A stretch of DNA of 64,000 nt, taken from a virus (taxonomy: Duplodnaviria; Heunggongvirae; Uroviricota; Caudoviricetes). The translations under genes and the position numbers were made by a program. Location of the stretch: the IMG/VR virus record IMGVR_UViG_2529292913_000008; one strand, written 5' to 3'. Of this stretch, positions 33,564-34,152 are shown in pieces (within the stretch, counting starts at the first letter, position 1; each line of letters begins with the position of its first letter). The notes beneath the pieces were generated by a model, which worked only from the letters and a program-made list of their open reading frames with translations, did no database searches and had not been told where the DNA came from.

Positions 33564-33986
33564 ATGTCGTTTTTTTCAACGTTAAAAACAGCTTTGTCTT
33601 TGAAGGAGAAACTTGCTGTTACTGGTGTTCTTGTCCTGATTTGCGCACTTGTTGGTGCTGGGTTTGCATGGGAACGTTATCAGTTAAAGCAAGCCTTGGA
33701 AAAAATTGGCAGCCTTGATCAGGCTGTTAAGGAGCGCGATAAGTCAATCATTGATCTTAACCAGACCATTGAGACGATGAATAAAGCGGATCAACATTTT
33801 CACAGCCAGGAAGTGAAAAATGAATCAGAACAAGCGAAGTATGCAGACAGACAAATGGAACGAAAAGCTGAAGTTCAGAAACAACTGGTTGCGTCGGGTA
33901 GTGTTCGCCAGCGCATTCCTGTTGACACTCAGCGGTTGCTCCGGGAGTCGATCAGCGAATTTAACGCCGACGCCGACAAAGGTTAA
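33564..33986 (+). CDS. Rz-like inner-membrane spanin candidate
   Basis: 140 aa: N-terminal TM helix then coiled coil; overlapped out of frame by a lipoprotein ORF. Confidence 0.45.
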   Translation: MSFFSTLKTALSLKEKLAVTGVLVLICALVGAGFAWERYQLKQALEKIGSLDQAVKERDKSIIDLNQTIETMNKADQHFHSQEVKNESEQAKYADRQMERKAEVQKQLVASGSVRQRIPVDTQRLLRESISEFNADADKG

Positions 33987-34152
33987 TCACCCTGCCCCCA
34001 AAAGTGCATTTATGTGCAGGATGCCAGAGTTTAGCAGTGAATATTTTGATGATCTGCCAGCCTATATCCTTGATACAGAAACGATGCTGATGGGGATTAA
34101 CAGGAAGAATCGCAACGTTAATGATTACAACCGCGCTATCAGCGGTAACTAA
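33820..34152 (+). CDS. Rz1-like outer-membrane lipoprotein spanin candidate
   Basis: lipobox LTLSGC (Cys codon 33937-33939) then Pro-rich mature region; true start probably internal (ATG 33841 or TTG 33889). Confidence 0.45.
   Translation: MNQNKRSMQTDKWNEKLKFRNNWLRRVVFASAFLLTLSGCSGSRSANLTPTPTKVNHPAPKSAFMCRMPEFSSEYFDDLPAYILDTETMLMGINRKNRNVNDYNRAISGN

What the first reader, a model, noticed from the sequence alone, without database searches (positions are those of the whole stretch)
33564..34152. Overlapped spanin-like gene pair away from any recognisable lysis cassette
A 140-residue signal-anchor plus coiled-coil protein is overlapped out of frame by a lipoprotein ORF (lipobox LSGC, Pro-rich mature part). 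This is the Rz/Rz1 architecture. No holin or endolysin is evident nearby, so these may be spanins placed apart from the lysis cassette, or a different envelope-spanning pair.
Basis: inference. Interest (0 to 1): 0.4.

Follow-up and report, generated by a model that had tools for sequence, protein, structure and literature searches.

The report
Phage P1 spanin genes ppfA/mlp
This overlapping gene pair is the already catalogued ppfA/mlp pair of a P1-like phage-plasmid, predicted to break the bacterial outer membrane at the end of infection, and its position far from the other lysis genes is a known P1 peculiarity.

Summary
ORF 33564-33986 (140 aa) has an N-terminal membrane anchor and a long helical periplasmic part. 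ORF 33820-34152 (110 aa, +1 frame, 167-nt overlap) has an LSGC lipobox.

The window is a P1-like phage-plasmid, 94-96% identical in DNA to RCS47, SJ46, P1 and P7. The pair is P1 ppfA/mlp (94% and 95% amino-acid identity). It is listed as an overlapped i-spanin/o-spanin pair in Kongari 2018 Table S1. Bednarek 2022 describes it as lying in an operon unlinked to lyz and lydAB, and as never tested experimentally.

I add four points:
- Both proteins are distant homologues of P2 LysB/LysC, not of lambda Rz/Rz1.
- Comparison with Cronobacter phage JK004 shows a dual-coding constraint from mlp codon 24 onward.
- The pair lies between the baseplate-tip genes upfC/upfB and upfA. In published P1vir RNA-seq, this five-gene block has late kinetics like lyz and lydAB.
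- No P1 lysis gene lies in the 64-kb window.

Caveat: CRISPRi knockdown of ppfA or mlp did not abolish plaque formation.

Verdict: already known by prediction and ordinary, so low interest.

The parts
33564..33986 (+). ppfA: predicted i-spanin, 140 aa, a type II inner-membrane protein with a helical periplasmic domain
   Evidence: ORF. It is 94.3% identical to P1 PpfA. It matches phrog_89 'Rz-like spanin' at E=6.6e-23 over residues 21-139, the family that holds P2 LysB. It is listed as the overlapped i-spanin of P1 in Kongari 2018 Table S1.
33553..33558 (+). Shine-Dalgarno AGGAGG of ppfA
   Evidence: Read from the sequence. Kongari 2018 Table S1 marks the same element.
33612..33668 (+). Codons 17-35 of ppfA: the transmembrane anchor LAVTGVLVLICALVGAGFA
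   Evidence: Kyte-Doolittle 19-residue maximum of 2.48. Helical in the AF2 model.
33894..33920 (+). Codons 111-119 of ppfA: non-helical hinge between the two periplasmic helices
   Evidence: The AF2 model has a DSSP break at 111-119 and a pLDDT dip to 62.
33820..34152 (+). mlp: predicted o-spanin, a 110-aa outer-membrane lipoprotein precursor, +1 frame relative to ppfA
   Evidence: ORF. It is 95.5% identical to P1 Mlp. It matches phrog_30284 at E=2.2e-74 and phrog_456 (the P2 LysC family) at E=6e-5. BLASTP to P2 LysC gives 37% identity over 68 aa, E=2e-8.
33808..33811 (+). Shine-Dalgarno AGGA of mlp, inside ppfA
   Evidence: Read from the sequence. The SD-like element AGGA(A/G)GTGAAA followed by an ATG 8-9 nt downstream is conserved in JK004, although the ATG arises from different ppfA codons there.
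33820..33986 (+). 167-nt region read in two frames (ppfA codons 86-140 and mlp codons 1-56)
   Evidence: The dual-coding constraint is seen only from 33889 onward.
33889..33891 (+). TTG, mlp codon 24: where homology to P2 LysC and two-frame constraint begin, and a possible alternative start
   Evidence: The BLASTP alignment starts at Mlp residue 24, matched to LysC residue 1. Divergence from JK004 falls from 34.8% to 19.4% at this point.
33928..33939 (+). Lipobox LSGC (Mlp residues 37-40). Cys40 would be the lipidated first residue of the mature protein.
   Evidence: Regex match. It is LSAC in JK004 and LSGC in P1.
32443..33524 (+). upfC and upfB, the genes directly upstream on the same strand (baseplate spike tip and tripod in P1)
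   Evidence: P1 annotation. Matches to the PAAR family: Pfam PF05488 at 26.0 bits, just below its curated cut-off of 27, and phrog_281 at E=2.5e-30. Cryo-EM assignment in PMC12810830. No +-strand terminator-like site lies between them and ppfA.
34164..34556 (+). upfA, 11 nt downstream of mlp on the same strand, function unknown, apparently the last gene of the block
   Evidence: It shows the same late RNA-seq kinetics as ppfA and mlp in P1.

Best explanation
The pair is the two-component spanin of a P1-like phage-plasmid, orthologous to P1 ppfA/mlp and distantly homologous to P2 lysB/lysC.

Inferred mechanism, by analogy with lambda Rz/Rz1:
- PpfA inserts in the inner membrane through its N-terminal helix. 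It projects about 104 residues of mostly helical, charged polypeptide into the periplasm (helix, hinge, helix).
- Mlp is exported, lipidated at Cys40, cleaved by signal peptidase II, and sorted to the inner leaflet of the outer membrane (Ser at +2).
- The C-terminal parts of the two proteins bind each other through the meshes of the peptidoglycan, so complexes spanning the periplasm accumulate harmlessly during late infection.
- When the holin LydA releases or activates the SAR-endolysin Lyz and the wall is destroyed, the complexes are free to cluster and change conformation. They then fuse or disrupt the inner and outer membranes, removing the last barrier to phage release.

What is shown here: the gene anatomy, its conservation, constraint in both frames, homology to LysB/LysC, and (from published P1 data) late co-expression with the baseplate-tip genes upfC/upfB and with lyz/lydAB.

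What is inferred: lipidation, localisation, complex formation and membrane disruption.
For: - Identity with P1 ppfA/mlp and synteny upfC-upfB-ppfA-mlp-upfA-oriR-repA-parAB.
- The literature lists P1 gp064/gp063 as an overlapped i-/o-spanin pair (PMC6139136 Table S1), located in an operon unlinked to the lysis genes (PMC9025707).
- PpfA and P2 LysB hit the same family, phrog_89 (E=6.6e-23 and 5.8e-61). Mlp and P2 LysC hit each other's families (phrog_456 at 6e-5, phrog_30284 at 5.4e-4), and BLASTP between them gives E=2e-8 with the second Cys aligned.
- The geometry matches P2: +1 frame, 140/141-aa and 110/96-aa products.
- TMD, helix-hinge-helix, and lipobox with Ser at +2.
- The pair is kept in JK004 at 58%/65% identity. 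Nucleotide divergence is 39.5% in ppfA-only sequence (3rd positions 50/101) and 30.7% in mlp-only sequence (3rd positions 27/48). It is only 19.4%, and flat across codon positions (6/6/7), in the truly shared stretch. That is the signature of two constrained frames.
- P1vir RNA-seq log fold-change for upfC/upfB/ppfA/mlp/upfA is 4.1-5.6 at 10 min and 10.5-11.2 at 30 min. This resembles lyz (6.1 to 11.3), lydA (5.2 to 11.8), lydB (3.4 to 11.0) and gene 23 (5.4 to 12.1). The flanking repA, parA, uhr and hrdC are already at 7.4-9.5 at 10 min.
- The pair is present in 631 plasmid records.
Against: - No experiment has shown spanin activity for PpfA/Mlp (PMC9025707).
- In genome-wide CRISPRi, P1 ppfA (EOP 1.3/1.2) and mlp (0.24/0.19) scored non-essential on plates containing 5 mM Ca and 5 mM Mg. 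Lambda Rz scored essential in the same study.
- There is no significant similarity to lambda Rz/Rz1, no Pfam hit, and the NCBIfam LysB equivalog scores 18.4 bits against a cut-off of 92.75.
- PpfA has no periplasmic cysteine, unlike lambda Rz.
- No Lpa-type late promoter motif was found upstream of the block.
- The pair sits next to the plasmid replication origin, not next to lysis genes.
Confidence: 0.85

Rival explanations
1. An envelope-spanning pair with a non-lysis role, for example superinfection exclusion, modification of the outer membrane in lysogens, or help with tail-tip penetration. The pair would have been retained from a LysB/LysC ancestor but repurposed.
For: - It lies beside the plasmid maintenance module and behind the baseplate-tip genes rather than in a lysis cassette.
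- The P1 annotation predicts sigma-70 promoters just upstream of ppfA.
- CRISPRi knockdown has little effect on plating, whereas lambda Rz knockdown does.
Against: - Both partners show homology to P2 LysB/LysC, with the same overlapped geometry.
- Expression is late and low at 10 min.
- Spanin defects are known to be conditional, so non-essentiality in plaque assays is expected (PMC9025707).
- Neither protein is named among the virion components identified by cryo-EM in that paper's text; a search of it found no mention of ppfA or mlp.
Confidence: 0.08
2. Regulators of lysis timing rather than membrane disruptors. This is the older reading carried in the P1 and P2 annotations ('possibly involved in regulation of lysis', 'affects timing of lysis').
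For: The GenBank notes for P1 mlp and for P2 lysB/lysC say this.
Against: The notes predate the spanin model. The topology (an inner-membrane anchor plus an outer-membrane lipoprotein) fits a periplasm-spanning complex, and later surveys class LysB/LysC as the overlapped spanin prototype (PMC6139136).
Confidence: 0.05
3. The mlp reading frame is a chance open frame, and only ppfA is a gene.
For: - Many annotations omit it or call only a 44-aa stub (RCS47 and JK004).
- Its first 23 codons show no protein-level constraint.
Against: - The non-overlapped 3' part (33987-34152) is covered by no other gene and shows excess third-position substitution in the mlp frame (27/48).
- The shared part from codon 24 is doubly constrained.
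- The lipobox and the second Cys are conserved in JK004 and P2 LysC.
- Lipoprotein signals are about 30-fold rarer in shuffled sequence.
Confidence: 0.01

Closest known systems
Bacteriophage P1 ppfA (gp064) / mlp (gp063)
   Same: Orthologues: 94.3% and 95.5% amino-acid identity, identical lengths, identical overlap and the same neighbours upfC-upfB on one side and upfA-oriR-repA-parAB on the other. They are already catalogued as an overlapped i-spanin/o-spanin pair.
   Different: Eight substitutions in PpfA and five in Mlp, all outside the lipobox and the mature Mlp. The element around them carries cargo absent from P1.
Bacteriophage P2 LysB / LysC (prototype of the 'overlapped' two-component spanins)
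   Same: - Both partners are detectably homologous (phrog_89; phrog_456/phrog_30284; BLASTP Mlp-LysC E=2e-8).
- The lipoprotein gene is in the +1 frame, starts inside the anchor gene and ends beyond it.
- Sizes are similar (140 vs 141 aa, 110 vs 96 aa).
- The second Cys of the lipoprotein is conserved.
   Different: - P2 lysBC sit directly after holin Y, endolysin K and lysA. Here the pair is more than 30 kb from any lysis gene.
- The i-spanins are too diverged for pairwise BLASTP (E=5.2) and fall far below the NCBIfam LysB cut-off.
- Mlp has a 23-residue basic N-terminal extension that LysC lacks.
Lambda Rz / Rz1
   Same: Same predicted topology and presumed mechanism: a type II inner-membrane protein with a helix-hinge-helix periplasmic domain, plus a small outer-membrane lipoprotein encoded in the +1 frame.
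   Different: - Rz1 is wholly embedded in Rz, whereas mlp runs past the ppfA stop.
- The sequence families differ (phrog_13/phrog_3198; no Pfam hit; BLASTP E=1.1 and 0.008).
- PpfA has no periplasmic Cys.
- The mature Mlp is 71 aa and less Pro-rich than Rz1.
Cronobacter phage JK004 genes 25/24 region
   Same: The most divergent relative found in the phage collection (58%/65% identity). It has the same 140-aa and 110-aa overlapped pair, an LSAC lipobox and the same flanking genes.
   Different: It is annotated only as hypothetical proteins, with the lipoprotein called as a 44-aa stub.

Membership tests
Two-component spanin (i-spanin + o-spanin), overlapped architecture | The i-spanin has a single N-terminal transmembrane domain, with the bulk of the protein periplasmic | tested here: met
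   The hydropathy maximum of 2.48 is at residues 17-35, followed by 104 charged, Cys-free residues. Kongari Table S1 gives the TMD end at 36.
Two-component spanin (i-spanin + o-spanin), overlapped architecture | The periplasmic domain of the i-spanin is mainly alpha-helical, with a central break | tested here: met
   AF2 single-sequence model, mean pLDDT 79.9: helix 4-110, break 111-119, helix 120-139. Coiled-coil oligomerisation itself was not tested.
Two-component spanin (i-spanin + o-spanin), overlapped architecture | The o-spanin has a lipoprotein signal with a lipobox and no inner-membrane retention signal (no Asp at +2) | tested here: met
   LSGC at residues 37-40, h-region VVFASAFLLT after RR, Ser at +2. 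Conserved in P1 and JK004.
Two-component spanin (i-spanin + o-spanin), overlapped architecture | The o-spanin gene starts inside the i-spanin gene in another frame and extends beyond its stop | tested here: met
   Offset of 256 nt (+1 frame), overlap 33820-33986, and mlp ends 166 nt after the ppfA stop.
Two-component spanin (i-spanin + o-spanin), overlapped architecture | Both frames encode constrained proteins | tested here: met
   Against JK004, divergence is 19.4% with a flat codon-position profile in the shared stretch from mlp codon 24. In the single-frame parts it is 39.5% and 30.7%, biased to third positions.
Two-component spanin (i-spanin + o-spanin), overlapped architecture | Located in or next to the holin-endolysin cassette (usual, not obligatory) | tested here: not met
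   No Lyz, LydA, LydB or LydD homologue anywhere in the window. In P1 the lysis genes are at 20.0-20.9 kb and 30.4-31.5 kb, against 63.4-63.9 kb for the pair.
Two-component spanin (i-spanin + o-spanin), overlapped architecture | Expressed late in infection together with the lysis genes | tested here: met
   Taken from published P1vir RNA-seq, not from this window. ppfA goes from 5.6 to 11.2 and mlp from 4.1 to 10.5 between 10 and 30 min, like lyz, lydA and lydB (PMC8201110 Table S1).
Two-component spanin (i-spanin + o-spanin), overlapped architecture | Needed for outer-membrane disruption, or complements lambda Rz/Rz1 | not testable with these tools
   Never tested, according to PMC9025707. 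CRISPRi knockdown scored non-essential for plaque formation.
Two-component spanin (i-spanin + o-spanin), overlapped architecture | The two proteins form a complex through their C-terminal regions | not testable with these tools
   No multimer prediction or experiment was available here.
P2 LysB/LysC sequence families | The i-spanin matches the LysB profile | tested here: inconclusive
   phrog_89, which contains P2 LysB at E=5.8e-61, is hit at E=6.6e-23 over nearly its full length. However, NCBIfam TIGR03495 phage_LysB gives only 18.4 bits against a cut-off of 92.75, and pairwise BLASTP is not significant. This makes it a distant homologue, not an equivalog.
P2 LysB/LysC sequence families | The o-spanin matches LysC | tested here: met
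   BLASTP gives 37% identity over 68 aa, E=2e-8. Mlp hits phrog_456 at 6e-5, and LysC hits phrog_30284 at 5.4e-4.
Lambda Rz/Rz1 sequence families | Sequence match to Rz and Rz1 (Pfam models, phrog_13/phrog_3198) | tested here: not met
   No Pfam family at E<=0.01. BLASTP gives E=1.1 to Rz and E=0.008 to Rz1, the latter over the signal-peptide region and the start of the mature part only (residues 24-60). Lambda Rz and Rz1 fall in other PHROGs.
Lambda Rz/Rz1 sequence families | Lipoprotein gene wholly embedded in the anchor gene | tested here: not met
   mlp extends 166 nt past the ppfA stop.

The most novel reading that the evidence does not exclude
The P1-type PpfA/Mlp pair may not be the phage's (sole) outer-membrane disruptor.

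Three observations leave this open:
- It is co-expressed with the baseplate spike-tip genes.
- It sits beside the plasmid origin.
- Knockdown leaves plating almost unchanged under conditions where lambda Rz knockdown is deleterious.

So P1 might have a redundant or different route through the outer membrane, or this LysB/LysC-derived pair might have acquired another envelope role.
Probability: 0.1. Interest if true: 0.35.

Novelty: already known. Interest (0 to 1): 0.1.

Why it matters
It matters little as a discovery. The pair has been annotated in P1 since 2004 and has been classed as spanins since 2007/2018. The scattered layout of P1 lysis genes is textbook.

The residual value is practical:
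- The lipoprotein gene is still missed or truncated in many P1-like records, so these coordinates help correct annotation.
- The spanin function of this widespread pair (631 plasmid records) has never been tested.
- How the upfC-upfA block achieves late timing without a recognisable Lpa promoter remains unexplained.

Tried and rejected
- Pfam gave no hit for either protein at E<=0.01. NCBIfam gave only a far sub-threshold LysB match.
- Pairwise BLASTP to lambda Rz, lambda Rz1 and P2 LysB was not significant. Only Mlp against LysC was.
- I searched the window for the P1 late-promoter pattern derived from LPlyz and LPdar (AAGTNAYTT-N4-TANNNT, up to 1 mismatch). This gave 7 sites, none within 5 kb upstream of the block.
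- The generic sigma-70 and terminator scan of 32000-35000 gave nothing above the shuffle expectation on the + strand.
- Alignment of the upfC upstream region with P1, RCS47 and JK004 shows a conserved C1 operator but no conserved late box.
- I considered TTG at 33889 as the true mlp start, because LysC homology and two-frame constraint begin there. I kept the ATG at 33820 as more likely, because an SD-like element with an ATG 8-9 nt downstream is present in both this window and JK004. The question is not settled.
- Summer 2007 and Lobocka 2004 could not be read. Their content is cited only through PMC9025707 and the GenBank notes.
- A literature search on 'ppfA' alone returned mostly unrelated acronyms.
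- I did not run the large protein-database searches, because the identification was already unambiguous.

Full report
**Observation**

The two ORFs are in the sequence exactly as described.
- One runs 33564-33986 (+, 140 aa, ATG after AGGAGG).
- The other runs 33820-34152 (+, 110 aa, ATG after AGGA).
- The second starts 256 nt into the first, so it is in the +1 frame. It shares 167 nt with the first and runs 166 nt past its stop.

The first protein:
- Its strongest hydrophobic segment is at residues 17-35 (Kyte-Doolittle 2.48).
- This is followed by 104 residues that are 36% charged, with no Cys and one Pro.
- A single-sequence AlphaFold2 model (mean pLDDT 79.9) makes it one long helix (4-110), a break (111-119) and a second helix (120-139).

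The second protein:
- It has RR, then VVFASAFLLT, then the lipobox LSGC at residues 37-40, with Ser at +2.
- The mature part is 71 aa with 6 Pro, 4 of them in the first 25 residues, so 'Pro-rich' is only partly apt.
- By my rule, lipoprotein signals occur in 3 of 233 ORFs of at least 60 aa in the window, against a mean of 0.1 in 30 shuffles.

**Identity**

Megablast of 33000-35000 finds P1-like phages at 94-96% identity: RCS47, SJ46, P1, P7 and others.

In P1 (AF234172) the two ORFs are ppfA ('possible periplasmic function') and mlp ('membrane lipoprotein precursor ... possibly involved in regulation of lysis'). They are flanked by upfC-upfB upstream and by upfA, oriR, repA and parAB downstream. 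The window proteins are 94.3% and 95.5% identical to P1 PpfA and Mlp, and every Mlp difference lies in the signal peptide. The same order is seen in RCS47 over +/-20 kb.

tblastn finds the pair in 19-20 phage records, all P1-like except Cronobacter phage JK004. It also finds the pair in 631 plasmid records, mostly Escherichia and Salmonella. One is a Shigella flexneri plasmid with a 100% identical PpfA.

**What is already known**

Bednarek et al. 2022 (PMC9025707) make three statements:
- They were identified from predicted features by Summer et al. 2007.

Their text swaps the i- and o- labels. Kongari et al. 2018 (PMC6139136), Table S1, list P1 gp064 as an overlapped i-spanin: 140 aa, 104-aa periplasmic domain, no periplasmic Cys. 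They list gp063 as the overlapped o-spanin. The finding therefore rediscovers a catalogued pair.

**Distance from lysis genes**

In P1, lyz/lydD/lydE are at 20.0-20.9 kb and lydB/lydA/lydC at 30.4-31.5 kb. The pair is at 63.4-63.9 kb. tblastn of P1 Lyz, LydA, LydB and LydD against the whole 64-kb window gives no hit at E<=1.

**Family relations**

- PpfA matches phrog_89 'Rz-like spanin' at E=6.6e-23 over almost its full length. Mlp matches phrog_30284 (E=2.2e-74) and phrog_456 (E=6e-5).
- P2 LysB belongs to phrog_89 (E=5.8e-61). P2 LysC belongs to phrog_456 and also hits phrog_30284.
- BLASTP of Mlp against LysC gives 37% identity over 68 residues, E=2e-8. The alignment starts at Mlp residue 24 against LysC residue 1, and the second Cys is aligned.
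- P2 lysC also starts in the +1 frame inside lysB and ends beyond it.
- Lambda Rz and Rz1 fall in other PHROGs. They give no significant BLASTP match, and no Pfam model is hit.
- The NCBIfam LysB equivalog scores 18.4 bits against a cut-off of 92.75.

The pair is therefore a distant relative of the P2 LysB/LysC overlapped spanins. It is only an architectural analogue of lambda Rz/Rz1.

**Are both frames real genes?**

JK004 keeps a 140-aa and a 110-aa ORF with the same geometry and an LSAC lipobox. Nucleotide divergence between the window and JK004 is as follows:

| Region | Divergence | Codon-position pattern |
|---|---|---|
| ppfA-only part | 39.5% | 50 of 101 changes at ppfA third positions |
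| mlp-only part | 30.7% | 27 of 48 changes at mlp third positions |
| mlp codons 1-23 | 34.8% | 15 of 24 changes at ppfA third positions, so only ppfA is constrained there |
| mlp codon 24 to the ppfA stop | 19.4% | flat, 6/6/7 |

The last row is what two constrained frames predict.

The N-terminal 23 residues of Mlp are therefore either an unconstrained basic extension of the signal peptide or not translated. An SD-like AGGA(A/G)GTGAAA with an ATG 8-9 nt downstream is present in both genomes, which favours the ATG at 33820. TTG at 33889 remains possible.

**Context and timing**

A 2026 cryo-EM study places UpfC (a PAAR / T4 gp5.4-like spike tip) and UpfB (a 'tripod' on the spike) in the P1 baseplate (PMC12810830). 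Gaps of 39 nt (upfB to ppfA) and 11 nt (mlp to upfA), and the absence of any +-strand terminator-like site, fit one transcription unit.

Log fold-change values from Table S1 of a P1vir RNA-seq study (PMC8201110) are as follows:

| Genes | 10 min | 30 min |
|---|---|---|
| upfC/upfB/ppfA/mlp/upfA | 4.9/4.1/5.6/4.1/5.2 | 10.6/11.1/11.2/10.5/11.2 |
| lyz | 6.1 | 11.3 |
| lydA | 5.2 | 11.8 |
| lydB | 3.4 | 11.0 |
| gene 23 | 5.4 | 12.1 |
| repA, parA, uhr, hrdC (flanking) | 7.4-9.5 | not summarised here |

The pair is thus expressed late together with the lysis genes, although it is unlinked from them.

I could not find an Lpa-type late promoter upstream. The C1 operator at 32345-32361 is conserved, but it belongs to the divergent, early dmt operon. 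How the late timing arises is unexplained.

**Mechanism (inferred)**

PpfA is anchored in the inner membrane and Mlp in the outer membrane. The two meet through the peptidoglycan. After Lyz removes the wall, the complexes act on the two membranes, as proposed for Rz/Rz1. None of these steps has been tested for P1.

The one piece of functional data is CRISPRi. ppfA (EOP 1.3/1.2) and mlp (0.24/0.19) scored non-essential on plates with 5 mM Ca and 5 mM Mg, whereas lambda Rz scored essential. Spanin defects are conditional and knockdown is incomplete, so this weakens the assignment only slightly. It does leave room for redundancy or for another role.

**Verdict**

The architecture is the P2-type overlapped class, not the lambda-type embedded class.
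- The pair is already known by prediction, and its displaced position is a documented feature of P1.
- Interest is low.

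Noticed in passing
window 6356-12415 (+), with 3218-4426 (-): A complete type I restriction-modification system is present: HsdM 518 aa, HsdS 422 aa and HsdR 1058 aa, all with strong Pfam matches. It lies a few kb from a DDE transposase gene. It looks like cargo inserted in the P1-like backbone, but the window was not compared with P1 over this region.
   Followed up: partly
window 36068-36595 (+): A 175-aa ORF with a T5orf172 domain lies between repA/incA and parA. RCS47 has a GIY-YIG nuclease gene at this spot, and P1 has none. It may be a homing-endonuclease-like insertion in the plasmid maintenance module.
   Followed up: partly
window 45080-46198 (-): A second DDE transposase (372 aa) lies in the repL/kilA neighbourhood, where RCS47 also carries a transposase.
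   Followed up: no
L003 (RCS47) 21022-21153; L004 (JK004) 6458-6592: In RCS47 and JK004 the lipoprotein gene is annotated only as a 44-aa C-terminal stub that lacks the signal peptide. Many PGAP plasmid records list only a 'hypothetical protein' under the ppfA match; the mlp annotation in those records was not examined. This is the annotation bias against overlapped o-spanin genes that Kongari 2018 describe.
   Followed up: yes
window 32345-32442: The upfC-upfA block shows late kinetics in published P1 RNA-seq, yet no Lpa-type late promoter box is recognisable upstream of upfC. Only the C1 operator (32345-32361) of the divergent dmt promoter is conserved as far as JK004. An imperfect palindrome, CTAAGTT-N10-AACTTAG, at about 32408-32431 is intact only in this window; P1 and RCS47 carry substitutions in its 3' arm, and JK004 lacks it.
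   Followed up: partly
window 32443-33524: UpfC matches the PAAR family (phrog_281 at E=2.5e-30; Pfam PF05488 at 26.0 bits, just below its curated cut-off of 27). UpfC and UpfB are now assigned to the P1 baseplate spike tip and 'tripod' by cryo-EM (PMC12810830). Sequence records still call them unknown, so the spanin pair shares its apparent operon with tail-tip genes.
   Followed up: partly
window 50613-51134 (+) and 26067-26894 (-): These are the only two other ORFs in the window with a good lipoprotein signal (LSGC at residues 20-23 and LTGC at residues 17-20). The second corresponds to the 'lipoprotein' next to tRNA-Met in RCS47. Neither overlaps a membrane-anchor gene.
   Followed up: no
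PMC9025707, Introduction: The paper labels ppfA as the o-spanin and mlp as the i-spanin. The sequences show the reverse: ppfA has the membrane anchor and mlp has the lipobox.
   Followed up: yes
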